Below, piece after piece: positions 29,392 to 63,109 of a DNA stretch of 64,000 nt (positions within the stretch are counted from its first letter, which is position 1; each line of letters starts with the position of its first letter). The notes beneath the pieces were generated by a model. That model had not been told where the DNA came from. It did not search any database and saw only the letters and a list, made by a program, of their open reading frames with translations. The translations under genes were made by a program, and so were the position numbers. This DNA comes from the human T2T-CHM13v2.0 reference genome, Homo sapiens, in the NCBI RefSeq assembly GCF_009914755.1, contig NC_060939.1; one strand, given 5' to 3'.

Positions 29392-29475
29392 TGTGTTGAT
29401 GATGAGAACCTTATATTATCCTGAAGAGAGGTGATGACTTAAAAATCATGCTCAATAGGATTACGCTGAGGCCCA
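29392..29475 (+). ncRNA. SNORD115-1: C/D box snoRNA SNORD115 copy 1
   Basis: Box C ATGATGA 29399-29405, D' CTGA 29421-29424, C' GTGATGA 29431-29437, guide ATGCTCAATAGGATTACG 29448-29465 (complement of HTR2C exon Vb), box D CTGA 29466-29469. First copy of the array. Confidence 0.97.
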
Positions 29476-29717
29476 GCCTAGGTGAGAATTTTGGAAGAGG
29501 ATGCTGGGATCCAGAGGCCCCCGACGGGGCCACTGTATTTCGGGCTGCAGACCTAGAGGCCCTGAAGGGCATCTGAAGGTGGCCCAAGCCTATCTCTGAG
29601 CAACCCCGTGAGGCAGTCAAGGATCCCTGTGTGGGCATAGGCTGGGGCTCTGGTTCCCTAGGGGCAGGGCATGTGGGTGGCTCCTCCCTGACCCCCATTC
29701 TCCCCTGTGTCTTTCAG

Positions 29718-29762
29718 TGAGCTCTTCTGCCCAGGCAGGCCCCCTGGCATTGACCGGCATAG
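29718..29762 (+). other. Predicted 45-nt host micro-exon downstream of copy 1 (homologue in each unit, e.g. 31620-31664)
   Basis: Acceptor ttctcccctgtgtctttcAG ending at 29717; donor TAG|GTGAGT at 29763. Strongly conserved across units. Confidence 0.7.
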
Positions 29763-31303
29763 GTGAGTGGATCCTGCTGGGGTCATGGGCCATGAGCCAG
29801 GCTGCTGGGGTCGCCAAGGGTCAGCCTTTGGGACAGGAGGGTTTCCTTAGGGAGCCAACCTGAATCCCCACTGGGGAGGGCTAGGTTCTCCAGGAGGGCA
29901 GCTTCCTTGGGAGTCTGACCCAAGGAGGATATCTTCTCTAAAGCCCTGCAGTGGTGAGGGTGGTCCAGGCAGCAAAGGGTTCCTTCAACCCCACCCAGGA
30001 CAGCGCCCAGCTGAGACTCAGTGTGCAGGTCTGGCCATGAGGACTGCCCAGGTCACATAAGGGGGTCCATAGGAGCTCCGGGGCACCACAGGGGTCACAC
30101 AGGAGCTCTCCTTCCCCAGAGAGGGGTGAGCGATTGGGCCTATGGGGTCAGGCCTTTGGAGATCAAGGATTGGGCCCCACCCATGAACCTGAATGGGACT
30201 GAGCCTTTGAGCAATGGACCATCCCAGTGGTGCCTCGGAGCCTAGTCGGGGGTGATGTGGCTTCAAGGGGGTTGGGTCAAGGCTGAGCTCTGGCCGGTGC
30301 CTGGTAGTGCTGCAGGCTGGCCCTGGGACTCGCTGGCTTTGGGCAAAGGGGCCAGCCCGTGTCCCACTGGAGGTCACCCCTTCCCTGTGGGCAACTAGCA
30401 GGAAGGGTGGCATCCTTAGCTGGGAAGGCCCACTGTCGAGGGTCCTGTCCAGGGAATTTGCCTCCCAGGCTTCTTCTGATCCACGGACTCACCTCCAGGG
30501 TGGTGGGGTCTTGGGCCCGAGGAAAGGAGAAGATACCCTGTGTTCCCCAGTTGGCTGAGTGTGGCTTGGCTCTGTGTTTGGGAGGTGTGTAGGGTATGAA
30601 TGGGGACCCACCAGAGAACACACATGGCCCAGGGCCCCAGGTTATGATTTCCCATGCACACTTGGAGAGAACTCTGGGTGAGTGCCCTCCACTCCCAGGC
30701 ACAGGCTATGCAACTGCCAGGTCTGCAGTGGCATGTGGCTTCCAGGTCAGCCTCCTTGGTTGGCCATGAGCAGGTTGGTTGCCCTGTCCTGTGCCCAGTG
30801 GTCTTGGAGTGGCCCAGGGGTCCTGCAGGGGAGCTGGTGTGGGTAGTGGAGGTGCTTGTGGGGCCTGCAATAGAGCGCAGCCTAGGTGCCTTGCACGAGC
30901 TCAGTGACCCACCTGCCCTGTCCTAGTCCTAGCTCAGTGACCCACCCCCGCTTTGCAGTGATGGGGAGTACCAAGCGTCTCCTGCGTCTGTGATGGGTCA
31001 GTGTTCCCATCACATGGGTCCATGGAGGGAGAGCATGCATGAGCTGGCACCACCCACCACCTTCCCACTATGGAGGCGTGAGGCCATGTTTGGACACATG
31101 TCTTCTTGTCCCCCCAGACAGTGAGCCTGGAGGAAGACTTGCCCTGGTCCCACTGTCCCTGGGCCAGTGTCCATCAGCCAGGTGCCCAGACCCCAGTGCG
31201 CTGAAGCTCAGCCCTCCCTGGCACTCTGGTCTCCTGCACTGAGCTGTGGTGAGCACATCCAGGTCCTGCTGGATGTTTGCATGGGGAGGGGCTTTCCCCG
31301 GGT

Positions 31304-31387
31304 TGGGTCGATGATGAGAAGCTTCTGTTTTCTTGAAGAGAGGTGATGACTTAAAAATCATGCTCAATAGGATTATGCTGAGGCCCA
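31304..31387 (+). ncRNA. SNORD115-2: SNORD115 copy 2 (diverged 5' half, D' TTGA, guide ends TATG)
   Basis: C, C' and D boxes intact; numbering by order. Confidence 0.93.
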
Positions 31388-32542
31388 GCCTAGGTGAGAA
31401 TTTTGGAAGAGGATGCTGGGATCCCCGGCAGGAGGGATTTTGGGCTGGAGACCTGGAGGCCCTGAAGGGTATCTGCAGGGGCCCCATCCCTGTCTCTGCA
31501 CTTGTCTGTGAGGCAGCCCAGTTTCCCTGTGTGGGCTTCGTGTCAGTGCTCTGGTTCCCTGGAGCAGGGCACGTGGGTGGCTCATCCCTGAAGTCACGTT
31601 CTCCCTTTGTGTCTTTCAGTGAGCTCTTCCGCCCATGAGGGCCCCCTGGCCTTGAGCAGCATAGGTGAGCGGATCCTGCTGGGCTCATGGACCAGGCCAC
31701 ATGGGGTCACTGAGGGTCAGCCTTCAGGACAGGAGGGATTCCTCAGGGAGACAACCTGAATCCCCACTGGTGAGGGATTGGTTCTCCAGGAGAGCCACCT
31801 CCTTGGGAATCTGACCCAAGGAGGACACCTTCCCTGAAGCCCTGCAGGAGTGACAGTGGTCCAGGCAGGAAAGGGTTCCATTAGTCCCATGCAGGGCAGC
31901 TCCCAGCTGAGACTTGGTGCTAGGGTCTGGCCTCGAGGACTGCCCAGGCCACATGAGGCAGGGTCTCAGGCTGCTATTTCCAGTGCATGCTTGGAGAGGG
32001 AGCCTGGGTAGGCCCCCTCCCTGTGCAGGGGCAGGCTGTGCATCTGCTGGGGCTGCAGCGGTGCCTGCCTTCAGGACCAGCCTCCTTGGTTGGCTTGAGC
32101 TGGATAGTGGCCTTGGCCCCACCCAGGGGTCATGGTGCAGCCCAGGAATTGCAGGGGAGCTGGCATGGGGAGTGGAGGTGCTCCAGGGGCTTGCAGTAGG
32201 GCACAGCCTGGGCATCTTGCTTGAGCCCAGTGACCAGCCTGCCCTGTTTTCCAGGGTTCAGTGGCAGGGAGGACCAAGGGTCCCCCACGTCCATGACTAT
32301 CACTGTTTCACATGGATCCCATCAGGTGGGTCCATGGAGGGAGAGCATGTGTGAGTCAGCACCCCCTGCCTCCTTTCCCGCATGGAGGCATGAGGTTCTG
32401 TTCGGACACTTTTCCCTGTCTCTCCAGATGGTGACCCTGAAGGAGGACTTGTGTTGGGCCCAATGGCCTGGGGCCAGTGTCTGTCAGCCAGGTGCCCAGC
32501 CCCTGGCGTGCTGAAGTTTGGGCCCTTCCTGGTGCCCTGTTC

Positions 32543-33517
32543 TATCGGGGGAACCCGCCCCCAATAATTCAACGTAGGTCCTTTTCTATTTTCCCTAAGT
32601 GTCGGCCGGTCTGAGAAATAAAGGGAAAGAGTACAAAAGAAAGAAATTTTAAAGCTGGGTGTCCGGGGGAGACATCACATGTCGGCAGGTTCCATGATGC
32701 CACCCAAGCTGCAAAACCAGCAAGTTTTTATTAGTGATTTTCAAAGGGGAGGGAGTGTACAAATAGGGTGTGGGTCACAGAAATCACATGCTTCACAAGG
32801 CAATAAAATATCAGAAGGCAAATGAGGGCAGAGCACCAGGGCCAAATTGAAATTGCTAATGAAGTTTCGGGCACGCATTGTCATTGATAACATCTTATCA
32901 GGAGACAGGGTTTGAGAGCAGACAACCGGTCTGACCAAAATTTATTAGGCAGGAATTTCCTCGTCCTAATAGGCCTAGGAGCGCTTCGGGAGACCAGGGC
33001 TTATTTCATCCCTTATCTACAACTGTATAAGACAGACATTCCCAGAGCGGCCATTTTAGAGACCTCCCCCTAGGAAGGCATTCTCTTTCTCAGGGTTGTT
33101 CCTTGCTGAGAAAAATAATTCAGCAATATTTCTCCTATTCGCTTTTGTAAGAAGAGAAATATGGCTCTGTTCCGCCCGGCTCTCAGGCAGTCAGGCCTGA
33201 TGGTTGTCTCCCTTGTTCCCTGAACATCGCTGTTATCCTGTTCTTTTTTCAAGGTGCCCAGATTTCATATTGTTTAAACACACATGTTTTACGAACAATT
33301 TGTGCAGTGAACGCAATCATCACAGGGTCCTGAGGCGAAATACATCCTCAGCTTACGAAGATGACGGGATTAAGAGATTAAAGTAAAGACAGGCATAGGA
33401 AATAATAAGAGTATTGATTTGGGAAGTGATAAATGTCCATGAAATCTTCACAATTTGTGTTCTTCTGCCATGGCTTCAGCAGGTCCCTCCGTTTGGGGTC
33501 CCTGACTTCCCTCAACA
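32543..33517 (-). mobile_element. Solo LTR, MER11 family (HERV-K11/HML-8)
   Basis: Minus strand begins TGTTGAGGGAAGTCAGGGACCCCAAACGGAGGGACC and ends GGTTCCCCCGATA. AATAAA at 32727-32732. 6-bp TSD ctgttc (32537-32542) / ctggtc (33518-33523). Confidence 0.92.
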
Positions 33518-33595
33518 CTGGTCTCTTCCACTGAGCCTTGGTGAGCCCATCTAGGTCCTACTGGATGCATGTGTGGGGAGGGGGGTGCCCTGGGT

Positions 33596-33679
33596 TGGGT
33601 CAATGATGAGAACCTTATATTGTCCTGAAGAGAGGTGATGACTTAAAAATCATGCTTAGTAGGATTACGCTGAGGCCTA
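33596..33679 (+). ncRNA. SNORD115-3: SNORD115 copy 3 (guide ATGCTTAGTAGGATTACG)
   Basis: All four boxes intact; two guide substitutions. Confidence 0.93.
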
Positions 33680-35500: not shown

Positions 35501-35584
35501 TGGGTCGATGATGAGAACTTTATATTGTTCTGAAGAGAGGTGATGACTTAAAAATCATGCTCAATAGGATTACGCTGAGGCCCA
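35501..35584 (+). ncRNA. SNORD115-4: SNORD115 copy 4
   Basis: All boxes and canonical guide. Confidence 0.94.
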
Positions 35585-37406: not shown

Positions 37407-37490
37407 TGGATCGATGATGAGAACCTTATATTGTCCTGAAGAGAGGTGATGACTTAAAAATCATGCTCAATAGGATTACGCTGAGGCCCA
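37407..37490 (+). ncRNA. SNORD115-5: SNORD115 copy 5
   Basis: All boxes and canonical guide. Confidence 0.94.
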
Positions 37491-39165
37491 GCCTTGGTGA
37501 GAATTTTGGAAGAGGATGCTGAGATCCCAAGGTCTCTGGCAGGGCCACTGTATTTTGGGCTGGAGACCTGGAGGCCCTGAAGGGCATCTTAGGGGTGCCC
37601 GACCCCATCTCTGCGCTCCTCCTTGAGGCAGCCCAGGCTCCCTTGCGGGCTTGGTGTCAGCCCTCCAGTTCCCTGGGGTTGAGGCACATTGGAGGCTCCT
37701 TCCTGAGCCCCCATTCTCCCCTGTGTCTTTCAGCGAGCTCTTCTGCCCAGGGGGACCCCTGGCCTTAAGTGGGATAGGTAAGTGGATCCTGCTGGGGTCG
37801 TGGACCATGAGCCAGGTCGCTTTGGGTCACTGAGAGTCACCCTTCAGGCCACGAGGGATTCCTCAGGGAGCCCATCTGAAACCCACCAGGGACGGATGGT
37901 TTCTCCAGGAGGACAGCTTCCTTGGAAGTCGGTCCCAAGAAGGATGCCTTCCCTGAAGCCGTGCAGAGATGATGGACGTCCAAGCAGGAAGGGCTTCCTT
38001 CAACTCAATGCAGTGCACATCCTAGCTGAGACTCAGTGCACAAGTCAGGCCTGGAGGACTTCCCAGGCCACATGAGGGGGTCCACAGGGTCTCCAGGGGC
38101 CACGGGTGTTATGAGGGTGCTCTCTGTCCCCGAGGCTTGCAGAGGGGCAGGGTGTGGGTGATCGGACTTATGGAGTCAGGCCGTGAAGATTCAAGGATTG
38201 GGCCCAACCCATGGCCCAGCATGGGCCGAACCTGTAGAGCAATGGGCCATCCCGGTGGTGCATCCTTGAGCCTTGTGGGGGTGGTGTGACCTTAGTGGGG
38301 TTGGGTCAAGCCTGAGCTCTGGCCTTCACCTGGTGGTGCTGCAGGCTGGCCCTGGGAATTTGGGCTTTGGGCCAAGGGTGCAGTCTGTGTCCCGCTAAAG
38401 GTCACCCCTCCCCAAAGTGGAGTGGCCAGAAGGATGGCATCCTGTGGTAGAAGTCCCACTGTCAAGGGTCCTGTCCTGGCAATTTGTTGCCCAGGCTGCT
38501 TCTAAGCCATGGGTTCACCTCCAAAGTGGCGGGGTCTTGAGCCGAAGGAAAGGGGAAGACATCATGTGTTCCCTGATTGACTGAGCATGGCCTGGCTCTG
38601 CATTTGGAGGTGTGCGGTGCACGAATGGGGACCCATCAGAGAAGGCATGTGGCCCTGGGGCTCCAGGATTTGATTTCTGGTGTGAGCTTTTACAGGGGGT
38701 CTGTAGTGGCACGTAGCATTCAGGTCAGCCTACTTGGTTTGCTCTGAGCTTGTTGGTGGTCCTGGCCCTGCCCAGTGGTCCCATTGTGGCATAGAGTCAT
38801 GTGAGGGAGCTGTGGCAAGGAGGGCCAAGGGTTCCCCACATTCATGATCGTTACTGTTTACATGGATCCCATCTCTTGAGTCCATGGAGGGACAGCATGT
38901 GTGAGCCAGCACCCCCTGCCCACTTTCCTGCATGGAGGCGTGAGGCCGTATTTCTATACGTGTCCCCCACCCCTCCAGATGGTGACCCCAGAGGAAGACG
39001 TGCATTGGGTCCGCTGGCCCCAGGCCAGTGTCTCTCAGCCATGTGCTCAACACCTGGTGAGCTGAAGCTCAGGCCCTTCCTGGCATCCTGGTCTCCTGCA
39101 CTGAGCTGTGGTGAGCACATCTGGGTTCCTCTGGATACGTGTGCAGGGAGGGGGATGCACTGGGT

Positions 39166-39249
39166 CGGGTCAATGATGAGAACCTTATATTGTTCTGAAG
39201 AGAGGTGATGACTTAAAAATCATGCTCAATAGGATTACGCTGAGGCCCA
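39166..39249 (+). ncRNA. SNORD115-6: SNORD115 copy 6
   Basis: All boxes and canonical guide. Confidence 0.94.
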
Positions 39250-41053: not shown

Positions 41054-41137
41054 TGGGTCAATGAGAACCTTATATTGTCCTGAAGAGAGGTGATAACTTA
41101 AAAATCATGCTCAATAATAGGATTACGCTGAGGCCCA
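41054..41137 (+). ncRNA. SNORD115-7: SNORD115 copy 7, degenerate (3-nt deletion in box C, C' GTGATAA, 3-nt insertion in guide)
   Basis: TGGGTCAATGAGAACC...GTGATAA...ATGCTCAATAATAGGATTACG-CTGA. Confidence 0.9.
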
Positions 41138-42974: not shown

Positions 42975-43058
42975 TGGGTCAATGATGAGAACCTTACATT
43001 GTTCTGAAGAGAGATGATGACTTAAAAATCATGCTCAATAGGATTACGCTGAGGCCCA
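42975..43058 (+). ncRNA. SNORD115-8: SNORD115 copy 8
   Basis: All boxes (C' ATGATGA) and canonical guide. Confidence 0.94.
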
Positions 43059-44299: not shown

Positions 44300-44383
44300 T
44301 GGGTCGATGATGAGAACCTTATATTGTCCTGAAGAGAGGTGATGACTTAAAAATCATGCTCAATAGGATTACGCTGAGGCCCA
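44300..44383 (+). ncRNA. SNORD115-9: SNORD115 copy 9
   Basis: All boxes and canonical guide. Confidence 0.94.
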
Positions 44384-50084: not shown

Positions 50085-50168
50085 TGGGTCGATGATGAGA
50101 ACCTTATATTGTCCTGAAGAGAGGTGATGACTTAAAAATCATGCTCAATAGGATTACGCTGAGGCCCA
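50085..50168 (+). ncRNA. SNORD115-12: SNORD115 copy 12
   Basis: All boxes and canonical guide. Confidence 0.94.
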
Positions 50169-51989
50169 GCCTAGGTGAGAATTTTGGAAGAAGGTGCTGG
50201 GATCCGGAGTTCCCTGGAATGACCAATGTATTTTGGGCTGGAGACCTTGAGGCCCTGAACAGCAGCATCTCGTGGGGGCCCAACCCCTTCTCCGTGCTCC
50301 TCTGTGAGGCAGCCCAGGCTCCCTGTGTGGGCTTGGTGTTAGTGCTCCGGTTCTGTGAACCCCCATTCTCCCCTTGTGTCTTTCAGTGAGCTCTTCCACC
50401 CAGGTGCAACCCCCTGGCATTGACCAGCATAGGTGAGTGGTCCCGCTGGGGTCATGGGTCATCAGTCATGCAGTGTGGGGTCACCAAGAGTCAGCCTTTG
50501 AGACAGGAGGGTTTCCACAGGCAGCTGACCTGAATCCACACCATGGAAGGGTAGGTTGGTCCTCCAAGAGGGCTGTTTTTTTGGGAATCGGACCCAAGGA
50601 TGATATCTTTCCTGCAGCCCTGCAGTGATGACGGTGGTCCAGGCAGGAAAAGTTTCCTTCAATCTCATGCAGGGCAGCTCCCAGCTGAGTCTCAGTGCAC
50701 TGGTCTGGCCTCGAGGACTGACCAGGCCACGTGAGGGGGGCCACAGGGGCTTTGGGATGCCATGGGGTCACACAAGAGCTCCCCATCCCTGGAGAAAGGT
50801 GGGCATAGAGCCCATGGAGTTGAGCTGCAGATATTTAAGGATCACACAGGATTTATAGCCCTGAATGGGACCGACCCTGTTGAGCAATGTGCCATCCATC
50901 CTATGGTACCTCTTTGGGCCTGGATGGGGTGTTGCTGTTTCCCTAGGTTTTGGTCAAGGCTGAGCTCTGGCCAGTGCCTGGTGGTGCTACAGTCCAGCCA
51001 CGGACTTGTTAGCTTTAGGCCAAGGGATCAGTCCACGTCCTGCTGGGGATCTCCCCTTCCCTGTGGCTGGAAGTCACCCCTTCCCCATTGGCAAGTGTGA
51101 GGAAGGGTGGCCTCCTGAGGTGGAAGGCCTGCTGTTGAGGGTCTTGTCCCTGGAATATGCCACCCACACTGCTTCTGAGCCATAGGGTCACCTCCAGGAT
51201 AGTGGGTATTGGGCCAAAGGAAAGAAGTCACCATGTGTCCCCTGATTAGCCAAGTGTGGCCCTGCTCTGTGTTTAGGAGGTGTGTGGGGCATGGATGGGG
51301 ACCCACCAGAGAAAGCATGTGGCCCTGGGACTCCAGGTTGTGATTTCCAGTTCATGCTGGGATAGGGCACCTGGATGGGTGCCCACAATGCACCGGGGCA
51401 GGCTATGTGACTGCCAGCTTTGCAGCGGCATCTGGCATCCGGGCCAGCCTCCTTGGTTGGCCATGAACTGGTTGGTGGCCCTGGCCTGTGCCCAGTAGCT
51501 CTGTCGTAATCCTGGGGTCATGCGAGGGAGCCGGCATGGGCAGTGGAGGTGCTCGTGGGACCTGCGGTAGGACACAGCCAGGTCTTCTTGCCCGAGCCCA
51601 GTGACCCACCTGCCCTGTCCTTCCAGGGTTCAGTGGTTGAGAGTACAGGGTGACTTGTGTCTGTGACAAGCCAGTGTTCTGCATGGATCCCATCACGTGG
51701 ATCCATGGACGGCAAGCATCCCTGAGCCGCCACACCCCACCTTCTGCCTCCATGGAGGGGTGAGGTTGTGTGTGGACGCCTGTCCTACTCCTGTTTCCCC
51801 AGGTATTGAGCCTGGAGGAAGACTTGAATTGGTCCCAATGGTCCCAGGCCAGCATCCATCAGCTAGGTGCTGAGCCCCTGGTGCACTGAAGATTGGGCAC
51901 TTCCTGGCACCCTGGTGTGCTGCACCGAGCTGTGATGAGCACATCCGGGTCCTGCTGGATGCATGCGCCGGGAAGGACGTGCCCTGAGT

Positions 51990-52073
51990 TGGGTCGATGA
52001 TGAGAACCTTATATTATCCTGAAGAGAGGTGATGACTTAAAAATCATGCTCAATAGGATTACGCTGAGGCCCA
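51990..52073 (+). ncRNA. SNORD115-13: SNORD115 copy 13
   Basis: All boxes and canonical guide. Confidence 0.94.
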
Positions 52074-53589
52074 GTCTAGGTGAGAGTTTTGGAAGAGGAT
52101 GCTGGGATCCTGAGGTCCCCTGGTAGAGCCAATTGTATTTTGGGCTGGAGACCTGGAAGCCCTGAAGGGCATCTGGGAGGCCCAACCCTGTCTCTGTGCT
52201 CCTCCATGAGGCAGCCCTGGCTCCCCATGTAGGCTTGGTGATGGCCTTCCTGTTCCCTGGGGGTGGGGCACATGGGTAGCTCCTCCCTGACCCCCATTCT
52301 CTCCTGTGTCTTTCAGTGAGCTCTTCCCTACAGGTGGGCCCCCTGGCATTGACTAGCATCGGTGAGTGGATCCTGCTGGGGTCGTGGGCCGTGCACCAGG
52401 CTGCATGGGGTCACCAAGTATTAGCCTTCAGGACAGGAGGGTTTCCTCAGGGAGTCGACCTTAATCCTCACCTGTGGAGAGATGGGTTTGTCCTCTAGGA
52501 GGGCAGCTTCCTGGGAAATCAGACCCAAGACGATGCCTTCCCTGAAGCCCTGCAGGGGTGACGGTGGTCCAGTCTGGAAAGGGTTCCTTCAGTCTCATGC
52601 AGGGCAGCTCCCAGCTGACACTTGGTGTGAGAGTCTGTCCTTGAGGACTGCCCAGGACAAATGAGTGGGACAACAGAGGCTCCCGGATACCACAGGGATC
52701 ACTCAGGGGCTCTCCGTCCCTGGAAATGGGTGGGCGATCGGGCCCATGGGGTGGGGCTGCGGAGATTCAAGGATCGTGCCCTGCTCATGGCCCTGAATGC
52801 AAATGACCCTGTTGAGCAATGGGTCACACCAGTAGCTCCTTTTTGAGCCTGGTGGGTGGCGGCTCAGCTTCAACTGGTTGGGTCAAGGCTGAGCCATGAC
52901 TGGTGCTTTGTGGTGCCGCAGGCCAACCCTGGGACTCATGGGCTTTGGGTCAAGGGTGCAGCCCGCCTGCTGCTGGGGGTCACCCCTTCTTCGAGGTCAG
53001 TGGCGGGAAGGGTCACGTCCCGAGGTTGGAAAGCCCCCTCATGAGGGACCTGTCCTGGGAATTTGTTGCCCAGGCTGCTTCTGAGCCATGTGGTCACTTC
53101 CGGGTGGCGGGGTCTTGGGCCCAAGGAAAGGAGAGGGCACCATGTGGCTCCTGATTGGCTCAGTGTGGCCCAGCTCTGTGTTTGACAGGGGTCTGGGGTG
53201 TGGATGAGGACCCACCAGACAAAGCACGTGGCCCTGGGCCCAGGCTGTGATTTCTGGTGCGTGCTTGGAGAAGGATCCTGGGCAGGCATTCTCTCCAAAC
53301 AGGGGCAGGTTGTGGGACTGCCAGATTGGCAGCAGTGCCTGGCATCCAGGCCAGCATCCTTGGTTGGCTGTGAGCTGGTTGGTGACCTTGGACCCTGCCC
53401 AGGGTTTCCGTTGTGGTCCAGAGTCATGCAGTGGGGCCAGTGTGAGCAGTGGAGGTGCTCCAGGGGCCTGCTGTATGGCACAGCCAGGGCATCTTACCCA
53501 AGCCCTCCTGCACTGGTCTCCTGCACTGAGCTGTGGTGAGCCCATCTGGGTTCCTGTGATGCCTGTGCGGGGAGGGGGTTGCCCTGGGT

Positions 53590-53672
53590 TGGGTCGATGA
53601 TGAGAAACTTATATTGTCTGAAGAGAGGTGATGACTTAAAAATCATGCTCAATAGGATTACGCTGAGGCCCA
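53590..53672 (+). ncRNA. SNORD115-14: SNORD115 copy 14 (1-nt deletion before D', as in copy 10)
   Basis: All boxes and canonical guide. Confidence 0.94.
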
Positions 53673-56244
53673 GCCTAGGTGAGAATTTTGGAAGAGGATG
53701 CTGGGAATTATGAGTTCCCTGGCAGAACCACTGTATTTTGGGCTGGAGACCTGGAGGCTCTGAGGGCATCTGGAGGGTGCCCAACCCTGTCTCTGCGCTC
53801 CTCCGTGAGGCAGCCCAGGCTCACTATGTGGGCTTGGTGTTGGCACTCCTGTTACCCGGGGGTGGGGCATTTTGGCATCTCCTTTCTGAGCCCCCAATCT
53901 CCCCTGTGTCTTTCAGTGAGCTCTTCTGCCCAGCAGCCTCCCTGGCAGTGACCAGCATAGGTGAGTGGATCCTGCTGGGGTAATGGCCCATGAGCCAGGC
54001 TGTGTGGGGTCACCAAGCATCAGCCTTCAGCCATAAGAGTTTCCTCAGGAGCTGACCCGAATGCCCACCTGGGATGGGTTCTCCAGAAGAGTGGCTTCCT
54101 TGGAAATCATACCCAAGGAAGATACCTTCCCTGAAGCCCTGCAGGGGTTGCAGTGGTCCAGGCAGTAAAGGGTTTTCTCAACCTCATGCAGGGCAGTGCC
54201 CCACTAAGACTCAGTGCTCTGGTCAGGCCTTTAGGATGGCCAGGCCACATGAGAGGGGCCACAAGGGCTCTGGGGCACCAAGGGGTTCTTGCAGGGGCTC
54301 TTCAACCTTGGAGAGGTGTGTGTAATTCAGCCCATGAGGTCAGGCTGTGGATTTTCAAGGATTGCACCAAACCCATGGCCCTGAATGGGACAAACCCTAA
54401 TAAGTTATGGGCCATCCCAGTGGTGCCTCTTTGAGCCAAGTGTGGGGTGGCACTGTTTCCTAAGGGTGAGTCAAGACTAGCTCTGGCTGGCACCTGATGG
54501 TGGTGCAATCCTGCCCTGGGATTGGTGGGCTTTGGGACATGGGTACAGCCCATGTCCCATTGGGGTCACCCCTTCATTGTGGACAGGTGGCGGGAAGCAT
54601 GTCCTCCTGAGGTGGGAAGGCCTGCTGTGGAAGACCCTGTCTCAGAAATTTGCTGTCTTGGCTGCTTCTGAGCTATGGCGTCACCTCTGTGGTGGCGGGA
54701 GTCTCGGGTGAATGGATCCTGCTGGGGTCATGGGCCATGAGCCAGGCCGGGGTGGGGTCCCTGAGCGTCACCTTTCGGGTCATGAGGGTTTCCTAAGGGA
54801 GCCGACCTGAATCCCCACCAGGGATGAATGGTTTCTCTGGGAAGCAGGTTTCCTTGGAAATCAGTCCCAAGAAGGACACCTTCCCTGAAACCTTGCAGGG
54901 GTAACAGAGGTCCAGGCAAGAGAGGGTTCTTTCAACCCAACGCAGTGCAGATCCTAGCTGAGACTTGGTGCACAGGTGAGTCCTGGAGGACTGCCCAGGC
55001 CACATGAGGGCATCCACAGGGTCTCCGTGGCCAGGAGTCTTATACGGGAGCCCTCTGTCCCCGAGGCTTGCAGAGGGGTTGGGTGTGGGTGATCTGGCTT
55101 ACGGAGTCAGGCCGTGAACATTCAAGGGTCGGGAACCACCCATGGCCCTGAATGGGACCGACCCTGTTGAGCAATGGCCATCCTGGTGGTGGCACCTTGA
55201 GCCTGGTGGGGGTGGCGCTGCCTCAGTGGGGTTGGGTCAAGGCTGAGCTCTGCCTGTCACCTTGTGGTTGGCCCTGGGAATCATGGGCTTTGGGCCAAGG
55301 GTGCAGCCTGCGTCCCGCTTGAGGTCACTCCTACCTGAAGTGGAGTGGCCGGAAGGGTGGCATCCTGTGGTGGGAGACCCACGGTCAAGGATCCTGTGCT
55401 GGCAATTTGCTGCGCAGCCTGGTTCTGAGTCATGGGGTCACCTCCAGGGTGACAGGGTCTTTGTCAAAGGGAAGGAGAGGACATTATGTGGCCCCTGATT
55501 GGCCAAGCATGGCCCAGCTCTGTGTTTGGGAGGTATGCGGTGCCTGAATGGGGACCCACCAGAGAAGGCACATGGCCCCGGGGCCCCAGGATGGTATTTC
55601 TGGTGTGAGCTTATAAAGGGTGCATGGATGGGTGCATTCCATGCCCAGTGGCGGGTTATGTGACTGCCAGGTCTGCAGTGGCACATGGGGTCCGGGCCAG
55701 CCTCCTTGGTTTGCCATGAGCTGGTTGGTGGCCCAGGCCCTGCCTAGTGGTCTCATTGCAGCCCAGAGTCATGTGGGGGAGCTGGCGTGGGCAGTCGAGG
55801 TGCTCCAGGGTCCTACAGTAGGGTGCAGCCTGGGCGTCTTGCTGGAATCCCATGACCCACCTGCCCTATCCTTCCAGGGTTGAGTGGCAGGGAGGGCCAA
55901 GGGTTCCTCGTGTGCATGACTGTCACTGTTTTACATGGATCTCATCTCATGAGTCCATGGTGGGAGAGCATGTGTGAGCCAGCACACCCTACCCACTTTG
56001 CCCTATGGAGGCACAAGGCCCTGTTTGGACACCTGTCCCCCACCCCTCCAGATGCTGACCCTGGAGGAAGAATTGCACTGGGCCCACTGGCCCCGGGAAA
56101 ATGTCCCTCAGCCAGGTGCTTAGCCCCTGGTAATCTGAAGCTCAGGCCCTTCCTGATGCCCTGGTCTCCTGCACTGAGCTGTGGTGAGCACATCTGGGTC
56201 CCAATGGATGCATGCATGCGTTGTGGGGTGGTGGTGTCCTGGGT

Positions 56245-56327
56245 TGGGTCGATGATGAGAACCTTATATGTTCTGAAGAGAGGTGATGACTTAAAAATCA
56301 TGCTCAATAGGATTACGCTGAGGCCCA
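56245..56327 (+). ncRNA. SNORD115-15: SNORD115 copy 15 (1-nt deletion in D' guide region)
   Basis: All boxes and canonical guide. Confidence 0.94.
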
Positions 56328-58116: not shown

Positions 58117-58200
58117 TGGGTCAATGATGAGAACCTTATATTATCCTGAAGAGAGGTGATGACTTAAAAATCATGCTCAATAGGATTACGCTGAGGCCCA
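58117..58200 (+). ncRNA. SNORD115-16: SNORD115 copy 16
   Basis: All boxes and canonical guide. Confidence 0.94.
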
Positions 58201-59991
58201 GCCTAGGTGAGAATTTGGAAGAGGATGCTGGGATCCCAAAGTCCCAGTAGGGGACTTTATTTATTTATTTTGGGCTGGAGCCCTGGAGGCCCTGAAGGGC
58301 ATCTGGGGGGCCCAGCCCTGTCTCTGTGCTCCTCCGTGAGGCAGCCCAGCCTCCCTGTGTGGGCTTGCTGTTGGTGGTCCAGTTCCTTGGGGCGGGGCAC
58401 GTGGACAGCTCCTCCTTGAGCCCCCCTGCTCCACTTGTGTCTTTCAGTGAGCTCTTCAACCCAGGCGGGGCACCCTGGCATTCACCAGCATAGGTGAGTG
58501 GATCCTGCTGCCATCGTGGGCCATGGGCCAGGCTGGGTAGAGTCACTGAGGGTCAGCCTTCGGGACAGGAGAGTTTCCTCAGGGAGCGAACCTGAATCCC
58601 CACCAGGGAGGGATAGGTTGGTCCTCCAGAAGGGTGGCTTCCTGAGAAATCGGACCCAAGGGGGACGCCTTCCCTGGAGCCCTGCAGTGATGACGGTGGT
58701 CCAGGCAGGAGAGGGTTCCTTCAGTCTCACACATAGTAGCTCCCAGCTGAGTCTAGGTGTTCGAGTCTGGCCTTGAGGACTGCCCAGGCCACCTGAGGGG
58801 CCAACAGGGACTCTGGGACACCATGGGGGTCACATAGGAGCTCTCCATTCATGGAGAAAGATGGATGATAGGGCCCATGGAGTCGAGCTGTGGAGATTTA
58901 AGGATTGCGCCCAATGTATGGCCCTGAATGGGACAGACCCTGTTGAGTAATGAGCCATTCTATGGGCCTCATCGAGCCTTGAGCGGGGCGGTGCTGTTTC
59001 CCTATGTTTGAGTCAAGGCTGGACTCTGGCCGGTGCCTGGTGGTGCTGAGGTCTGGCCATGGACTCGTTGGCTTTGGGCCAAGGGGTCAGCCTGCTCCCC
59101 CTGGAAGTCCCCCCTTCCCCGTGGCTGGAAGTCATCCCTTCCCAAGGGGCAAGTGTCGGGAATGGTTGCCTCCTGAGGTTGCAAGGCCTGCTATCTAGGG
59201 TCTTGTCTTTGGAATATGCTGCCCATGCTGCTTCTGAGTCATGGGGTCACCTCCAGGGTAGCGGATCTTGGGCCCAGGGACAGAAGATGCCGTGTGTCCC
59301 CTGATTAGCTGATTGTAGCCCTGCTCTGTGTTCAGGAGGTGTGTGGGGCATGGATGCAGACCCACCAGAGAAAACTGTGGCCCTTAGACCCCAGGTTGCA
59401 ATTTCCATTATGTGCTGGGATAGGGCATCTGGGTGGGCACCCACTATGCACAGAGATAGGCTATGTGACTGCCAGGGCTGTAGCGGCATCTGACATCTAG
59501 GCCAGCTTCCTTGGTTTCCTGCGAATGAGTTGGTGGCCCTGGCCTGTGCCTAGTAGTTCTGGGGTGACCCCGGGTCGTGTGGGGGAGCCAGCAGGGGCCC
59601 AGTGACCAGCCTGCCCTGTCCTTCCAGAGTTCTGTGGCTAAGAGAGCACTGGGTACCCTGTGTCCGTGATGGGCCAGTGTTCCGCATGCAAACGATCACA
59701 TGGGTCCATGGAGGGCAAGCATACTTGAACTGCCACACCCCACCTTCTGCTCACATACAGGAGTGAGGTTGTGTTTGGACAGCTGTCCTACTCCTGTTCC
59801 CCTAGACTGTGAAATGGGAGGAAGAATTGTGTTGGGCCCAATGGCCCTGGGCCAGTATCCGTCAGCCTGGTGTCCAGCCCCTGGTGTGCTGAAGCTCATG
59901 CCCTTCCTGGTGCCCTAGTTTCCTGCACTGAGCTTGGTGAGCCCATTTGGGTACTGCTGGATGCATGGGTGGGGAGGGAGGTGCCCTGGGT

Positions 59992-60075
59992 TGGGTCGAT
60001 GATGAGAACCTTATATTGTCCTGAAGAGAGGTGATGACTTAAAAATCATTCTCAAAAGGATTATGCTGAGGCCCA
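59992..60075 (+). ncRNA. SNORD115-17: SNORD115 copy 17 (variant guide ATTCTCAAAAGGATTATG)
   Basis: All boxes intact; three guide substitutions. Confidence 0.93.
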
Positions 60076-61895
60076 CCCTAGGTGACAATTTTGGAAGAGG
60101 ACACTGGAAATCAATGAGGTCCCTGGCAGGGCCACTATAATTTGGGGTGGAGACCTGGAAGCCCTGCAGGGCACCTCGTGGGGGCCCAACCCTGTCTCTT
60201 CACTCCCCTGTGAGGCAGCCCAAGCTCCCTCTGTAGGCTTGGTGTCGGCACTCTGCTTTCCTGGAGGCGGGGCATTTTGGCTGCTCCTTCCTGAGCCCCT
60301 GTTCTCCCCTGTGTCTTTCAGTGAGCTCTTTTGCCCAGAAGACTCCCTGGCATTGATCGGCATAGGTGAGTGTCTCCTGCTTGGGTCATGGGCCATGAGC
60401 CAGACCATAGGGTTGCCGAGGGTCAGCATTTGAGCCATGAGGGTTTCCTCAGGAGGCGACCTGAATCCCCACCTGGGATGGGTTCTCCAGGAGGGCAGCT
60501 TCCTTGTGAATCTGAGCCAAGTAAGATGCCTTCTCTGAAGCCCTGCAGGGGTGCCAGTTGTGCAGGCAAGAAAGGGTTCCCTCAGCCCCAGGCAGGGCAG
60601 CGCCCAGCAGAGACTCGGTGGTTGGGTTAGGCCTCTAGGATGACCAGGCCACATGAGGGGGGCCACAAGGGCTCTGGGGCACAACAGGGGCTTCGCAGGG
60701 TCTCTGCGACCCCAAAGAGTGGTGGGCGATTCGGCCCATGGGATCGGGCCCCAGATTCAAAGATCACACCACACCCATGGCCCTGAATGGAACCGACCCT
60801 GTTAAGCATTGGGGCATCCCAGGGGTGCCACTTTGAACCTGGTGTGGGGTGCCGCTGTTTGCCTGAGGTTGGGTCGAGACTAGCTCCGGCCAGCACCTGA
60901 TGGTGGTGCAGTCCGGCCCTGAGATTAGTGGGCTGTGGGCCCAGGGTGCAGCCTGTGTCCCGCTGGGGGTCACCTCTTCCTTGTGGGCGAGTGGTGGAAG
61001 GGCATCCTCCTGAAGTGGGAAGGCCCGCTGTGGAAGGAACTGTCCTGGAAATTTGCCATCCAGGCTGCTTCTGAGCCATGGGGTCGCCTCCAGAGTGGCA
61101 GGGTCTTGGGCCCAAGGAAAGGAGAGGACACTGTGTTTCCCTCAATTAGCTGAGTGTGGCCCTGCTCTCTGTGTGGGAGGTGTTGTGTGGGGCATGGATA
61201 GGGACCCACCAGAGACAACACATGGCCCTCGGGCCCCAGGCTGCAATTTCTCAGTGCATGCTTGGAGACGGTCCTGGGCCTCCTCCATGCCCAGGGTCAG
61301 GCTGTGCAACTGTCAGGTTAGCGGCGGCATGTGGTGTCTGGGCCTGTCTACTTCGTTGTCCGTGAGCTGCTGGTGGCCCTAGCCCTTTCCCAGGGGTTCA
61401 GGTGCAGCCCTGGGGTTGTGTGGGACAGCCAGTGTGGGCAGTGGAGCTGCTCTGGAGGCCTGCTTTAGGGTGCAGCCTGGGTGTCTTGCCCGAGTGTAGT
61501 GACCCGCCTGCCGTGTCCTCACGGGGTTCCCTAGCAGGAAGGGCCAAGGGTCCCCTGTGTCTGTGACACGTGAGTGTTTCCCATGGGTCCCATCAAATGG
61601 GTCCACGGAGGGAGAGCATGAGTGAACTGGTACCCCCCACCCCCACCCTCTTCCCCACCTGGAGGCATGAGCCCCTGGTTGGACATATGTCCTCCTCCTG
61701 TACCCCCAGATGGCAGCGCTGGAGGAGGACTTGTACTGGGGCCGCTGGCCCCACATCAGTGTCCGTCATCCCGGCGTCCAGCCCCTGGTGTGCTGAAGCT
61801 CAGGCCCTTCCTTGTGCCCTAGTCTCCTGCACTGAGCTTGGTGAGCCCATTCGGATACTGCTGGATGCATGGGTCGGGAGGGAGGTGCCCTGGGT

Positions 61896-61979
61896 TGGGT
61901 CGATGATGAGAACCTTATATTGTCCTGAAGAGAGGTGATGACTTAAAAATCATTCTCAAAAGGATTATGCTGAGGCCCG
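61896..61979 (+). ncRNA. SNORD115-18: SNORD115 copy 18 (variant guide)
   Basis: All boxes intact; same guide as copy 17. Confidence 0.93.
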
Positions 61980-63025
61980 GCCTAGGTTAGAATTTTGGAA
62001 GAGGATGCTGGGATCCTGAGGTCCCCAGGAGAGCCCCTTTATTTTTGGCTGGAGACCTGGAGGCCCTGAAGGGTATCTGGGGGGCCCAGCCCTGTCCCTA
62101 TACTCCTCTGTGAGGCAGCCCAGGCTCTCTGTGTGGGCTTGGTGTTGGCACTCTGGTTTTCTGGGGGCGGTTCAGGTTGCTGGTTCCTTCTGAACCATTG
62201 TTCTCCCCTTGATTCTTTCAGTGAGCTCTTCTGCTCAGGCGGGTCCCCTGGCATTGACCAGCATAGGTAAGTGGATCCTGCTGGGTTCATGGGCCATGAG
62301 CCAGACCACATGGAGTGACTGAGGGTCAGCCTTCAGGACAGGAAGATTTCCTCGGGGAGCCAACCTGAATCCCCACCGTGGAGGGATGTGTTAGTCCTCC
62401 AGGAGGGTGGCTTCCTAGGGAATCTGACCCCAGGAGGACACCTTTGCTGAAGCCCTGCAGGGGTGATGGTGGTCCAGGCTGGAAAGTTTTCCTTCAGTCT
62501 CATGTGGGGCAGCTCCCTGCTGACATTCCGTGCCTGCGTCTGACCTTGAGGACTGCCCGGGCCACATGAGTGGGGCAACAAGGGCTCCAGGGTGCCACGG
62601 GGATTATGAGTGGGGCTCTCCATCCCCGGAGAGAGGTGGGCAATCAGGCCCATGTGGTCAGGCTTGTAGGGTTCGGTGGTGGGGAGAGCCAAGGTTTCCC
62701 TGGGTCCATTACCGTCACTGTTTCACCTGGATCCCATCACATGGGTCCATGGAGGGAGAGCATGTGTGAACAGGCACCCCTTGCTCCCTTTCCCACATGA
62801 GCCCCTGGTTGGACATATGTCCTCCTCCTGTCCCCCCAGATGGTGGCCCTGGAGGAGGACTTGTATTGGGGCCACTGGCCCCACGTCAGTGTTCGTCAGC
62901 CTGGCATCCAGCCCCTGGTGTGCTGAAGCTCAGGCCCTTCCTGTTGCCCTAGTCTCCTGCACTGAGCTTGGTGAGTCCATTCGGGGACTGCTGGATGCAT
63001 GGGCGGGTAGGGAGGTGCCCTGGGT

Positions 63026-63109
63026 TGGGTCGATGATGAGAACCTTATATTGTCCTGAAGAGAGGTGATGACTTAAAAATCATTCTCAAAAGGATTATGC
63101 TGAGGCCCG
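63026..63109 (+). ncRNA. SNORD115-19: SNORD115 copy 19 (variant guide)
   Basis: All boxes intact; identical to copy 18. Confidence 0.93.

What the first reader, a model, noticed from the sequence alone, without database searches (positions are those of the whole stretch)
29392..63109. Nineteen tandem intron-encoded SNORD115 C/D snoRNAs with an 18-nt guide to HTR2C (the main system; known)
Seen: an 83-84-nt element with C/D'/C'/D boxes recurs 19 times, about 1.9 kb apart, and is far better conserved than the spacers. The guide ATGCTCAATAGGATTACG is exact in 13 of 19 copies. Established: SNORD115/HBII-52 is brain-specific and paternally expressed, and is complementary to serotonin receptor 2C exon Vb (CGUAAUCCUAUUGAGCAU); the D+5 rule targets the C editing-site adenosine. 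The ORF track misses this system entirely. It is not undescribed.
Basis: partly seen in the sequence, partly recalled or inferred. Interest (0 to 1): 0.8.

Follow-up and report, generated by a model that had tools for sequence, protein, structure and literature searches.

The report
Known SNORD115 snoRNA gene array
These are the first 19 copies of the well-known human SNORD115 small nucleolar RNA gene array on chromosome 15, whose guide sequence matches the serotonin 2C receptor message; it is real but already annotated and described in print.

Summary
Rfam SNORD115 (RF00105) hits 19 full-length copies at exactly the RefSeq coordinates 29393-63108, at 90.5-114.2 bits against a cut-off of 39. 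A weak relic lies at 17897-17955.

- **Guide:** the 18-nt guide is exact in 13 of 19 copies.
- **Size and spacing:** copies are 81-82 nt, not 83-84. Spacing is 1130-2655 nt, median about 1905.
- **Conservation:** the snoRNA is 95.4% conserved between units, against 75.6% for the rest of the unit. The host exons are no better conserved than the introns.
- **Target:** in the whole assembly the guide occurs 29 times in the chr15 array. Its reverse complement occurs exactly once, in the exon that encodes 5-HT2C receptor residues 104-170. D+5 falls on the second A of the AAT codon, the C editing site.

The identification is correct and already known. One caveat: "guide to HTR2C" is established as complementarity and in transfected cells. 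A Snord115 knockout mouse showed no splicing change and only modest editing changes (PMC7673782).

Side observations:
- A strongly conserved 28-nt 3' flank carries a 5'-splice-site-like motif.
- Copy 7 has lost its C and C' boxes.
- Copies 17-19 share a short gene-conversion tract.

The parts
17897..17955 (+). Isolated degenerate SNORD115 relic (LOC124903592). About 23 nt covering the C box and ASE1 are missing and the guide is mutated. It has no unit-like flanks.
   Evidence: Rfam 42.9 bits; sequence; BLAST of a unit against 1-29132 matches only the 58 nt of the snoRNA part
28704..29132 (+). Proximal edge of the array: the tail of a unit spacer that precedes unit 1.
   Evidence: 74% identity over 402 nt to the end of unit 12's spacer; nothing unit-like further upstream except the relic
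29206..29336 (+). Host-gene 'exon A' of unit 1, the example of the 131-nt exon that recurs in each unit. Its donor lies 56 nt upstream of the snoRNA.
   Evidence: Hub annotation; donor GGTGAG kept in 18/19 units; exon body identity 0.73, no better than intron
29393..29474 (+). SNORD115-1; guide exact; two changes in the 5' stem.
   Evidence: 99.8 bits
29475..29502 (+). Conserved 28-nt 3' flank (example, unit 1). Positions +1..+8 form the 3' arm of the external stem. Positions +6..+13 are a 5'-splice-site-like AG|GTGAGA, followed by a purine-rich stretch.
29718..29762 (+). Host-gene 'exon B' of unit 1 (45 nt), 243 nt downstream of the snoRNA.
   Evidence: Hub annotation; acceptor TTTCAG in 19/19 units and donor GT in 19/19
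31305..31386 (+). SNORD115-2; the guide C17>T is wobble-compatible; D' is TTGA; ASE1 is diverged.
   Evidence: 101.5 bits
32361..33336 (+). Partial unit without a snoRNA: a 183-nt exon-A-like piece followed by sequence unique to unit 2, which overlaps the stretches the hub lists as masked repeats (32576 onward).
   Evidence: hub repeat list
33597..33678 (+). SNORD115-3; two guide changes, both G-U compatible.
   Evidence: 106.2 bits; duplex -26.7 kcal/mol over 18 pairs
35502..35583 (+). SNORD115-4; guide exact.
   Evidence: 111.3 bits
37408..37489 (+). SNORD115-5; guide exact.
   Evidence: 106.4 bits
39167..39248 (+). SNORD115-6; guide exact.
   Evidence: 113.7 bits
41055..41136 (+). SNORD115-7; probably a dead copy. 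It has a 3-nt deletion that removes the C box, C' reads TGATAA, and there is a 3-nt insertion in the guide.
   Evidence: Lowest full-length score, 90.5 bits
42976..43057 (+). SNORD115-8; guide exact; its unit is shortened to 1325 nt.
   Evidence: 111.5 bits
44301..44382 (+). SNORD115-9; guide exact.
   Evidence: 113 bits
46206..46286 (+). SNORD115-10; guide exact; 1-nt deletion in ASE1 (81 nt).
   Evidence: 106.6 bits
48084..48165 (+). SNORD115-11; identical to the Rfam consensus.
   Evidence: 114.2 bits, alignment shown
50086..50167 (+). SNORD115-12; guide exact.
   Evidence: 113 bits
51991..52072 (+). SNORD115-13; guide exact. It lies inside annotated exon 51803-52079 because the exon-A donor is GT>AT. 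That exon ends at the conserved post-snoRNA GT motif.
   Evidence: 111.5 bits; hub annotation
53591..53671 (+). SNORD115-14; guide exact; 81 nt.
   Evidence: 105.5 bits
54674..55430 (+). Extra partial spacer copy inside unit 14, with no snoRNA.
   Evidence: 82% identity over 734 nt to 37777-38506 of unit 5
56246..56326 (+). SNORD115-15; guide exact; 81 nt.
   Evidence: 104.7 bits
58118..58199 (+). SNORD115-16; guide exact.
   Evidence: 112.8 bits
59993..60074 (+). SNORD115-17; variant guide ATTCTCAAAAGGATTATG (two pair-breaking changes and one wobble).
   Evidence: 105 bits
61897..61978 (+). SNORD115-18; snoRNA identical to copy 17; its unit is shortened to 1130 nt.
   Evidence: 105 bits
63027..63108 (+). 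SNORD115-19; snoRNA identical to copies 17 and 18. The array continues beyond the window.
   Evidence: 105 bits

Best explanation
Window 28704-64000 is the proximal part of the human SNORD115 (HBII-52) tandem array at 15q11.2. It holds copies 1-19 of a 44-copy main array. Three degenerate distal copies and one upstream relic also lie on the same chromosome.

Each unit of about 1.9 kb is a two-exon mini-gene of the non-coding host SNHG14: a 131-nt exon, an intron of about 380 nt, a 45-nt exon, and an intron of about 1.35 kb. The 82-nt box C/D snoRNA sits in the short intron, 56 nt after the donor and about 245 nt before the acceptor.

Shown here:
- Covariance-model membership.
- Intact C/D'/C'/D boxes in 17 of 19 copies (copy 2 lacks D', copy 7 lacks C and C').
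- A 13-bp terminal helix, 8 bp of which lie outside the mature RNA.
- Conserved splice signals around unconserved exon bodies.
- Conservation focused on the snoRNA.
- An 18-nt element ending at the D box whose only complement in the assembly lies in HTR2C exon Vb, with D+5 on the C editing-site adenosine.

Inferred from established C/D snoRNA biology (recalled, and as cited in PMC3845636 and PMC7673782): the snoRNA is released from the spliced intron by debranching and exonucleolytic trimming. It is protected by the core snoRNP on the C/D kink-turn. The long external stem compensates for the non-optimal distance to the acceptor.

Most likely action (my odds about 0.5): the snoRNP pairs with HTR2C pre-mRNA over the E, C and D editing sites and slightly dampens editing there, by 2'-O-methylation of the C site and/or by occupying the ADAR substrate. 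The net effect in vivo is small.

In this window 15 of 19 copies can form the full 18-pair duplex, 3 are weakened, and 1 is probably dead.

The confidence given (0.95) is for the identity, anatomy and pairing potential, not for the action in vivo.
For: - Rfam: 19 of 19 at 90.5-114.2 bits, cut-off 39.
- Boxes.
- Terminal helix: 96.2% of 234 cells paired, against 54-61% when slid by one column. RNAalifold predicts the same 13 pairs on its own (18 of the 19 copies were given, copy 7 left out because of its indels).
- Conservation: snoRNA identity 0.954, against 0.756 for the rest and 0.73/0.78 for the exons.
- Splice signals: exon B acceptor 19/19, exon B donor 19/19, exon A donor 18/19.
- Distances: 56-65 nt from the exon A donor to the snoRNA; 219-252 nt from the snoRNA to exon B.
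- Genome-wide guide search: 29 forward hits, all in the chr15 array; 1 reverse hit at C23:113256814-113256831; the backwards-read control pattern gave 0 and 0.
- That site lies in an exon whose translation is 100% identical over 67 aa to solved 5-HT2C receptor chains, residues 104-170, E 8e-41.
- Duplex energies: -28.9 kcal/mol for 13 copies; -27.1 and -26.7 for copies 2 and 3; -16.4 for copies 17-19; 500 shuffled guides gave -10.9 +/- 2.3.
- Family-wide: 49 RF00105 hits in the assembly, 48 of them on chr15.
- Literature: array, imprinting and neuronal expression, and the proposed editing and splicing roles (PMC7673782 Introduction). ASE2 is conserved and HTR2C is the only target conserved between human and mouse (PMC12429941 sections 14 and 20). 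D+5 is the C site (PMC5865145 passages; PMC4063771 passages).
Against: Nothing speaks against the identity.

Against the proposed action:
- A CRISPR deletion of the whole mouse Snord115 array left Htr2c alternative splicing unchanged. It changed editing only modestly and region-specifically, and gave no feeding, metabolic or anxiety phenotype. [quoted passage not shown]
- The snoRNA accumulates in the nucleolus while the pre-mRNA does not; the same Discussion raises this differential compartmentalisation as a concern.
- Stem covariation among the 19 paralogues is not significant. The covariation score is reached by 111 of 500 shuffles, and only 1 pair shows a compensatory change.
- Guide substitutions across the 44 main-array copies are not clearly enriched for wobble-compatible changes: 4 of 9 distinct changes.
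Confidence: 0.95

Rival explanations
1. The same snoRNA array, but the guide acts mainly as a methylation-independent antisense mask. It would cover a splicing silencer in exon Vb, promote use of the distal donor and so favour the full-length receptor (the Kishore and Stamm model).
For: The complementary 18-mer starts 13 nt downstream of the alternative (proximal) GU donor inside the 95-nt exon Vb (the same distance is stated in PMC3845636). PMC5865145 passages favour this model on the basis of a differentiating cell line.
Against: The Snord115 knockout mouse shows no change in the ratio of regular to truncated Htr2c isoforms in many brain regions. Oligonucleotides that mimic the Snord115 pairing had no effect on splicing in vivo (PMC7673782 Discussion).
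Confidence: 0.15
2. The snoRNAs are real, but their selected function does not involve HTR2C. Candidates are other RNA targets, shorter processed forms, non-canonical protein partners, or a role of the repeated host transcript itself in the imprinted domain (for example as part of the UBE3A antisense transcript).
For: - The knockout phenotype on the HTR2C pathway is weak.
- Several copies carry altered guides. Copies 17-19 do. Copy 23, outside the window, has a guide region that differs at 8 of 18 positions in an ungapped comparison (sequence), and the paper reports it as highly expressed (PMC12429941 sections 13-14).
- Splice signals and a 3'-flank motif are conserved as well.
Against: - Conservation peaks sharply on the snoRNA, not on the host exons.
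- The 18-nt guide plus the 10 nt before it are among the best-kept parts: 0.94 and 1.00.
- The guide has a single complement in 3.1 Gb, and it falls precisely on a regulated site.
- A search for targets conserved between human and mouse gave only Htr2c (PMC12429941 section 14).
Confidence: 0.25
3. The similarity of the snoRNA copies reflects homogenisation by non-allelic gene conversion rather than selection on each copy. Many copies would then be functionally redundant passengers.
For: - Copies 17-19 have identical snoRNAs carrying three derived guide changes, yet their spacers are only 75-77% alike.
- Their spacers group with different units; unit 19 groups with units 5 and 11 at support 0.998.
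- Tracts of 90-100% identity, a few hundred nt long, surround these snoRNAs.
- Conversion in this array is reported from human polymorphism data (PMC12429941 section 12).
Against: Conversion alone does not explain why conservation across all units drops so sharply at the 5' boundary of the external stem: 0.90 at -9..0, against 0.70-0.79 at -49..-10. It also does not explain why ASE1 varies more than ASE2 inside the same 82 nt. Conversion and selection are not exclusive.
Confidence: 0.1

Closest known systems
SNORD115 / HBII-52 (Rfam RF00105), human 15q11.2 array in SNHG14
   Same: It is this family. All 19 copies match the model end to end at the RefSeq SNORD115-1..19 coordinates, with the published 18-nt complementarity to HTR2C exon Vb.
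   Different: Nothing categorical. Per-copy details differ: copy 7 has lost its C and C' boxes, copies 17-19 have a weakened guide, and copy 13 is exonic in the RefSeq model.
SNORD116 / HBII-85 array, immediately upstream in the same host gene
   Same: A tandem, imprinted, neuronal box C/D array with one snoRNA per intron of the same host transcript. It is also shaped by conversion and by birth-and-death evolution (PMC12429941, PMC4063771).
   Different: It is a different family. No SNORD116 hit lies in this window. Its targets are unknown, and it is the array genetically tied to Prader-Willi syndrome (PMC7673782 Introduction).
Mouse/rat Snord115 (MBII-52) and rat L-Snord115
   Same: Orthologous array with the same guide. 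In one rat copy the 3' flanking intron supplies an alternative D box (PMC3845636 abstract and passages).
   Different: Copy number and units are lineage-specific. The human 3' flank mostly reads CTGG rather than CTGA at the comparable place; CTGA is present in copies 5 and 11. No rodent sequence could be examined here.
SNORD113/SNORD114 arrays at imprinted 14q32
   Same: Tandem intronic orphan C/D snoRNA arrays in an imprinted non-coding host, located far from the acceptor site (PMC3845636 Introduction passage).
   Different: They are maternally expressed (recalled), belong to a different family, and have no known mRNA complementarity.

Membership tests
SNORD115 (Rfam RF00105) | Covariance-model score at or above the curated gathering score (39 bits), full-length match | tested here: met
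   19 of 19 copies score 90.5-114.2 bits over model positions 1-82; the relic at 17897 scores only 42.9 bits
SNORD115 (Rfam RF00105) | 18-nt antisense element ending at the D box, complementary to HTR2C exon Vb, with the fifth pair on the C editing-site adenosine | tested here: met
   Exact in 13 of 19 copies and full 18 pairs with G-U in 2 more. The single complement in the assembly lies in the 5-HT2C exon. The D+5 position was counted on L030; the site name comes from PMC5865145 and PMC4063771. Not met in copy 7, and weakened in copies 17-19.
SNORD115 (Rfam RF00105) | Location: tandem units of about 1.9 kb in introns of SNHG14 at 15q11.2, distal to SNORD116/IPW | tested here: met
   Spacing has a median of about 1905 nt. 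All 48 chr15 hits are clustered at C15:22.896-23.007 Mb. Gene names come from the hub annotation, not from my own tools.
SNORD115 (Rfam RF00105) | Paternal-allele-only, neuron-specific expression | not testable with these tools
   Literature only (PMC7673782 Introduction)
Box C/D snoRNA class | C box (RUGAUGA) near the 5' end and D box (CUGA) near the 3' end, brought together by a terminal stem | tested here: met
   C box in 18/19 copies and D box in 19/19. The 13-bp helix has 96.2% of cells paired and is also predicted by RNAalifold. Copy 7 fails the C box.
Box C/D snoRNA class | Internal D' and C' boxes | tested here: met
   D' in 18/19 (copy 2 has TTGA); C' in 18/19 (copy 7 has TGATAA)
Box C/D snoRNA class | Assembly with fibrillarin/SNU13/NOP56/NOP58 and 2'-O-methylation of the paired target | not testable with these tools
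   Methylation of the HTR2C C site has not been demonstrated in vivo, according to the PMC7673782 Discussion

The most novel reading that the evidence does not exclude
The 28 nt right after each SNORD115 copy are a selected cis-element. Its single-stranded part is a competent 5' splice site (TAG|GTGAGA) that competes with the weaker exon-A donor 56 nt upstream of the snoRNA.

When the external stem and the snoRNP form, this site is occluded. The upstream donor is then used and the snoRNA is released in the intron. Otherwise the snoRNA is exonised into the host lncRNA. On this reading the motif sets snoRNA yield per copy, which could explain the unexplained large differences in expression between nearly identical copies.

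Support:
- It is the best-conserved non-snoRNA stretch of the unit.
- It is unpaired beyond +8 in the consensus fold.
- GT is kept in 19/19 window copies and 38/44 main-array copies.
- Its match to the donor consensus is 6.8/9, against 6.1/9 for the annotated exon-A donor.
- It is used as the donor in the RefSeq model in exactly the unit whose exon-A donor is GT>AT (and hub annotation).

I found no description of it in 2 searches. PMC12429941 section 13 calls the flanking regulatory elements 'yet to be characterized'.
Probability: 0.25. Interest if true: 0.35.

Novelty: already known. Interest (0 to 1): 0.1.

Why it matters
SNORD115 is the textbook case of a snoRNA predicted to act on an mRNA. 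It lies in the Prader-Willi/Angelman imprinted domain and is deleted in most Prader-Willi patients.

For this scan the result is a positive control. A reader working from raw sequence recovered a real, annotated non-coding RNA array and its target, and the tools confirm every structural claim. Nothing new about the family follows from it.

The open question is whether, and how, the snoRNA acts on HTR2C in vivo. That is an experimental matter that sequence analysis of this window cannot settle.

The conserved 3' flank with its splice-donor motif is a small, testable lead on how snoRNA release from this host gene is controlled.

Tried and rejected
1. Tandem Repeats Finder did not report the array, because its longest period here is 500 nt. 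This is not evidence against the repeat; the unit alignment replaced it.
2. The variant guide of copies 17-19 has one exact complement outside the array, at C10:108983292. By my own arithmetic about 0.1 such hits are expected by chance for this AT-rich 18-mer in 3.1 Gb. With one mismatch there are 30 hits, against 10 for the backwards-read control. I treat it as chance and did not examine the place.
3. I looked for enrichment of wobble-compatible changes in the guide. Four of 9 distinct substitutions across the 44 main-array copies keep the pair, close to what transitions alone would give. No claim is made.
4. Covariation in the terminal helix among paralogues is not above shuffles: 111-145 of 500 shuffles reach the observed values. 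The helix rests on pairing percentage and the slide control only.
5. Mechanical ORFs: 26 ORFs of 120 aa or more overlap 29000-64000 on both strands. No evidence was sought or found that any is a gene. RefSeq annotates none, and the GC-rich repeat explains open frames.
6. The chr10 RF00105 hit is not a retrocopy of the snoRNA. It shares at least 713 bp at 90% identity with the most distal chr15 copy, flanks included.
8. No other mammalian genome is reachable with these tools, so cross-species conservation of the flank and of the units was not tested.

Full report
**Observation**

A covariance-model scan of the whole 64-kb window against Rfam 15, both strands, gives 20 hits. All are SNORD115 (RF00105) and all lie on the + strand. 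Nineteen are full-length matches (model 1-82) at 29393-29474 through 63027-63108. These are the RefSeq coordinates of SNORD115-1 to -19. They score 90.5-114.2 bits against a gathering score of 39. The twentieth hit is a 59-nt relic at 17897-17955 (42.9 bits).

- Copy 2 has one change and copy 3 has two.
- Copies 17-19 share the same three changes.
- Copy 7 escapes the search because it has a 3-nt insertion.

Copies are 81-82 nt long, not 83-84. The 18 intervals range from 1130 to 2655 nt with a median of 1904.5. Tandem Repeats Finder cannot see a period this long.

**Anatomy of the snoRNA**

Box counts come:
- C box TGATGA in 18 of 19 copies.
- D' CTGA in 18 of 19; copy 2 has TTGA.
- C' TGATGA in 18 of 19.
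- D CTGA in 19 of 19.

Copy 7 combines three defects: a 3-nt deletion that removes the C box, a C' box reading TGATAA, and the 3-nt insertion in the guide. It has the lowest full-length score, and I take it to be a dead copy.

The 5 terminal pairs of the mature RNA continue into 8 further pairs formed by the flanks (CCTGGGTT upstream, AGCCTAGG downstream).
- Over the 13 pairs, 96.2% of 234 cells are standard pairs.
- That falls to 54-61% when the partner is slid by one column.
- RNAalifold predicts the same 13 pairs unprompted (18 of 19 copies given, copy 7 left out).
- Covariation among these close paralogues is not above shuffles, so the helix rests on pairing alone.

**Anatomy of the unit**

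I aligned the 19 units with MAFFT.

| Part of the unit | Mean pairwise identity |
|---|---|
| snoRNA | 0.954 |
| 131-nt host exon | 0.73 |
| 45-nt host exon | 0.78 |
| Remaining 1644 kept columns | 0.756 |

Only 3 of 1822 sliding 82-column windows reach the snoRNA's value, and all three lie on the snoRNA.

The exon bodies are therefore not conserved, but their splice signals are:
- Exon B acceptor TTTCAG in 19/19 units.
- Exon B donor GT in 19/19.
- Exon A donor GGTGAG in 18/19.

The snoRNA lies 56-65 nt after the exon A donor and 219-252 nt before exon B. This is the known one-snoRNA-per-intron design of a non-coding host whose exons matter only as splice substrates. The distance to the acceptor is far from the 70-80 nt optimum for splicing-coupled C/D assembly. 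Such snoRNAs, including the chr14 and chr15 clusters, are held to be processed independently of splicing factors (PMC3845636 Introduction passage). The long external stem fits that picture; this last point is an inference.

Inside the snoRNA, identities differ by segment:
- ASE1: 0.91.
- The 10 nt before the guide: 1.00.
- The guide: 0.94.
- The boxes: 0.97-1.00.

This agrees with published analyses (PMC4063771 passages; PMC12429941 section 14).

**Irregular units**

- The array begins near 28704 with the tail of a spacer. Upstream, only the relic at 17897 resembles a unit, and only over its snoRNA part.
- Unit 2 carries a partial extra unit at 32361-33336. It is a 183-nt exon-A-like piece followed by sequence unique to unit 2, which overlaps the stretches the hub lists as masked repeats.
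- Unit 14 carries an extra 757-nt copy of the spacer that follows exon B.
- Units 8, 13 and 18 have deletions of 569, 304 and 771 alignment columns.

**Target**

A search of the whole 3.1-Gb assembly for the guide gives 29 forward hits, all in the chr15 array. It gives exactly one reverse-strand hit, at C23:113256814-113256831. The control pattern gives none.

The site lies in an exon that translates to DYVWPL...DRYVAIRNPIEHSRF...AISI. This is 100% identical over 67 residues to solved 5-HT2C receptor chains, residues 104-170. On locus L030:
- The complement occupies positions 1501-1518.
- The alternative GU donor is at 1488, 13 nt upstream, as stated in PMC3845636.
- The exon ends at 1582, so the alternative part (exon Vb) is 95 nt.
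- Counting five pairs from the D box lands on A1505, the second A of the AAT codon. This is the position the literature calls editing site C (PMC5865145 figure legend passage; PMC4063771 passage).

Predicted duplex energies:

| Copies | Energy (kcal/mol) | Note |
|---|---|---|
| 13 exact copies | -28.9 | |
| Copy 2 | -27.1 | Change keeps G-U pair; all 18 pairs retained |
| Copy 3 | -26.7 | Changes keep G-U pairs; all 18 pairs retained |
| Copy 7 | -22.5 | With a bulge |
| Copies 17-19 | -16.4 | |
| 500 shuffled guides | -10.9 +/- 2.3 | Control |

**What is and is not established about function**

From the papers I read:
- The array, its paternal and neuronal expression, and the complementarity date from 2000.
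- Effects on C-site editing and on exon Vb inclusion were shown in transfected cells with minigenes (PMC7673782 Introduction; PMC5865145 passages).
- A CRISPR deletion of the entire mouse array left Htr2c splicing unchanged and altered editing only modestly and regionally. It gave no behavioural or metabolic phenotype.
- The authors note that methylation at the C site has never been shown in vivo (PMC7673782 abstract and part 1 of 2 of the Discussion).
- A 2024 comparative study finds Htr2c to be the only target conserved between human and mouse, and documents non-allelic gene conversion in the array (PMC12429941 sections 12-14 and 20).

I did not read Cavaille 2000, Vitali 2005, Kishore and Stamm 2006 or Hirose 2003. 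They are cited only through these papers.

My reading is as follows. Identity and pairing potential are certain. A small dampening of editing under the duplex is the most likely action, at about even odds. The splicing model, HTR2C-independent roles, and homogenisation without per-copy function are the rivals.

**Wider array**

RF00105 has 49 hits in the assembly. Forty-eight are on chr15 between 22,895,897 and 23,006,525, and one is on chr10. I fetched the rest of the array and aligned 47 chr15 copies. Of the 44 main-array copies, 29 have the exact guide, 8 have one change, 1 has two, 4 have three, and 2 are more diverged. The chr10 hit is a DNA-level duplication of the most distal chr15 copy (at least 713 bp at 90%), not a retrocopy.

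**Side observation 1: gene conversion among copies 17-19**

Their snoRNAs are identical and share three derived guide changes. Yet their spacers are only 75-77% alike and group with different units; unit 19 groups with units 5 and 11 at support 0.998.

Pairwise identity is 90-100% only in a tract of a few hundred nt around the snoRNA. In 60-column windows the tract runs from windows starting at -132 to +39 for 17 versus 18. It runs from about -215 to +69 for 18 versus 19. This is the signature of short-tract conversion, a process already reported for this array.

More generally, adjacent units are no more alike than distant ones (0.751 against 0.756).

**Side observation 2: a conserved 3' flank**

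The 28 nt after the snoRNA (consensus AGCCTAGGTGAGAATTTTGGAAGAGGAT) are the best-conserved part of the unit outside the snoRNA.
- Identity is 0.913, and the top seven of 1767 28-column windows all lie in it. The exon B acceptor comes next.
- Across the 44 main-array copies, +1..+8 scores 0.865 and +9..+28 scores 0.871.
- Upstream, conservation extends only about 10 nt.
- Positions +1 to +8 belong to the external stem. The rest is unpaired in the consensus fold.
- It reads TAG|GTGAGA, a 5'-splice-site-like motif; the donor consensus is recalled.
- GT is kept in 19 of 19 window copies and 38 of 44 main-array copies.
- It matches the donor consensus at 6.8 of 9 positions on average, against 6.1 for the annotated exon A donor.

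In unit 13 the exon A donor is GT>AT. The RefSeq exon 51803-52079 then runs through SNORD115-13 and ends exactly at this motif. That explains why this one copy is exonic, and it shows the motif can serve as a donor.

Whether the motif is selected as a regulatory alternative donor is untested. Two literature searches found no description of it, and PMC12429941 section 13 calls the flanking regulatory elements uncharacterised.

**Verdict**

This is a correct identification of a known, annotated system. Novelty: already known. Interest is low, and the value here is as a positive control. The most novel reading that remains is the function of the 3'-flank donor motif.

Noticed in passing
window 29475-29502 and the equivalent 28 nt after each of the 19 copies: The 3' flank (AGCCTAGGTGAGAATTTTGGAAGAGGAT) is the best-conserved non-snoRNA stretch of the unit. 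Beyond the external stem it carries a 5'-splice-site-like TAG|GTGAGA, kept in 19/19 window copies and 38/44 main-array copies.
   Followed up: partly
window 51803-52079 (unit 13): The exon-A donor is GT>AT in this unit only. The annotated exon therefore reads through SNORD115-13 and ends at the post-snoRNA GT motif, which makes this copy exonic in the RefSeq model.
   Followed up: yes
window 59733-64000 (units 17-19): The snoRNAs are identical and share three guide changes, but the spacers are only 75-77% alike and have different nearest relatives. A tract of 90-100% identity, a few hundred nt long, surrounds the snoRNA. This indicates short-tract non-allelic gene conversion.
   Followed up: yes
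window 41055-41136 (copy 7): It has a 3-nt deletion that removes the C box, a C' box reading TGATAA, and a 3-nt AAT insertion in the guide. It is probably a pseudogene although it is annotated as SNORD115-7.
   Followed up: partly
window 32361-33336 and 54674-55430: Partial units without a snoRNA. The first is an exon-A-like piece followed by sequence that overlaps the hub's masked repeats. The second is an extra copy of the post-exon-B spacer, closest (82%) to unit 5.
   Followed up: partly
whole array, units 1-19: Spacers of different units are only about 75% identical, and adjacent units are no closer than distant ones. The units therefore look much older than the human-chimpanzee split. 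This sits oddly with the published estimate that 31 of 41 human copies are human-specific gains (PMC4063771 passage).
   Followed up: no
L030 1618-1645 (HTR2C intron after exon V): The intronic stretch ATGCTCAATACTTTCGGATTATG resembles the snoRNA guide. By recall this is the editing-complementary sequence that pairs with the same exon segment, so the snoRNA and the intron would compete for one site.
   Followed up: no
L048 (G000:C10:29605854-29606929): The one RF00105 hit outside chr15 (68 bits) lies in a duplication of at least 713 bp, 90% identical to the most distal chr15 copy with its flanks. It is not a retrocopy.
   Followed up: partly
L031 (G000:C10:108983292-108983309): This is the single exact complement of the variant guide of copies 17-19 outside the array. 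By my arithmetic it is probably chance, and the place was not examined.
   Followed up: no
window 17897-17955: A 59-nt SNORD115 relic lies 11.5 kb upstream of the array. It keeps the terminal stem, C' and D boxes but lacks the C box and ASE1, and no unit-like sequence surrounds it.
   Followed up: partly
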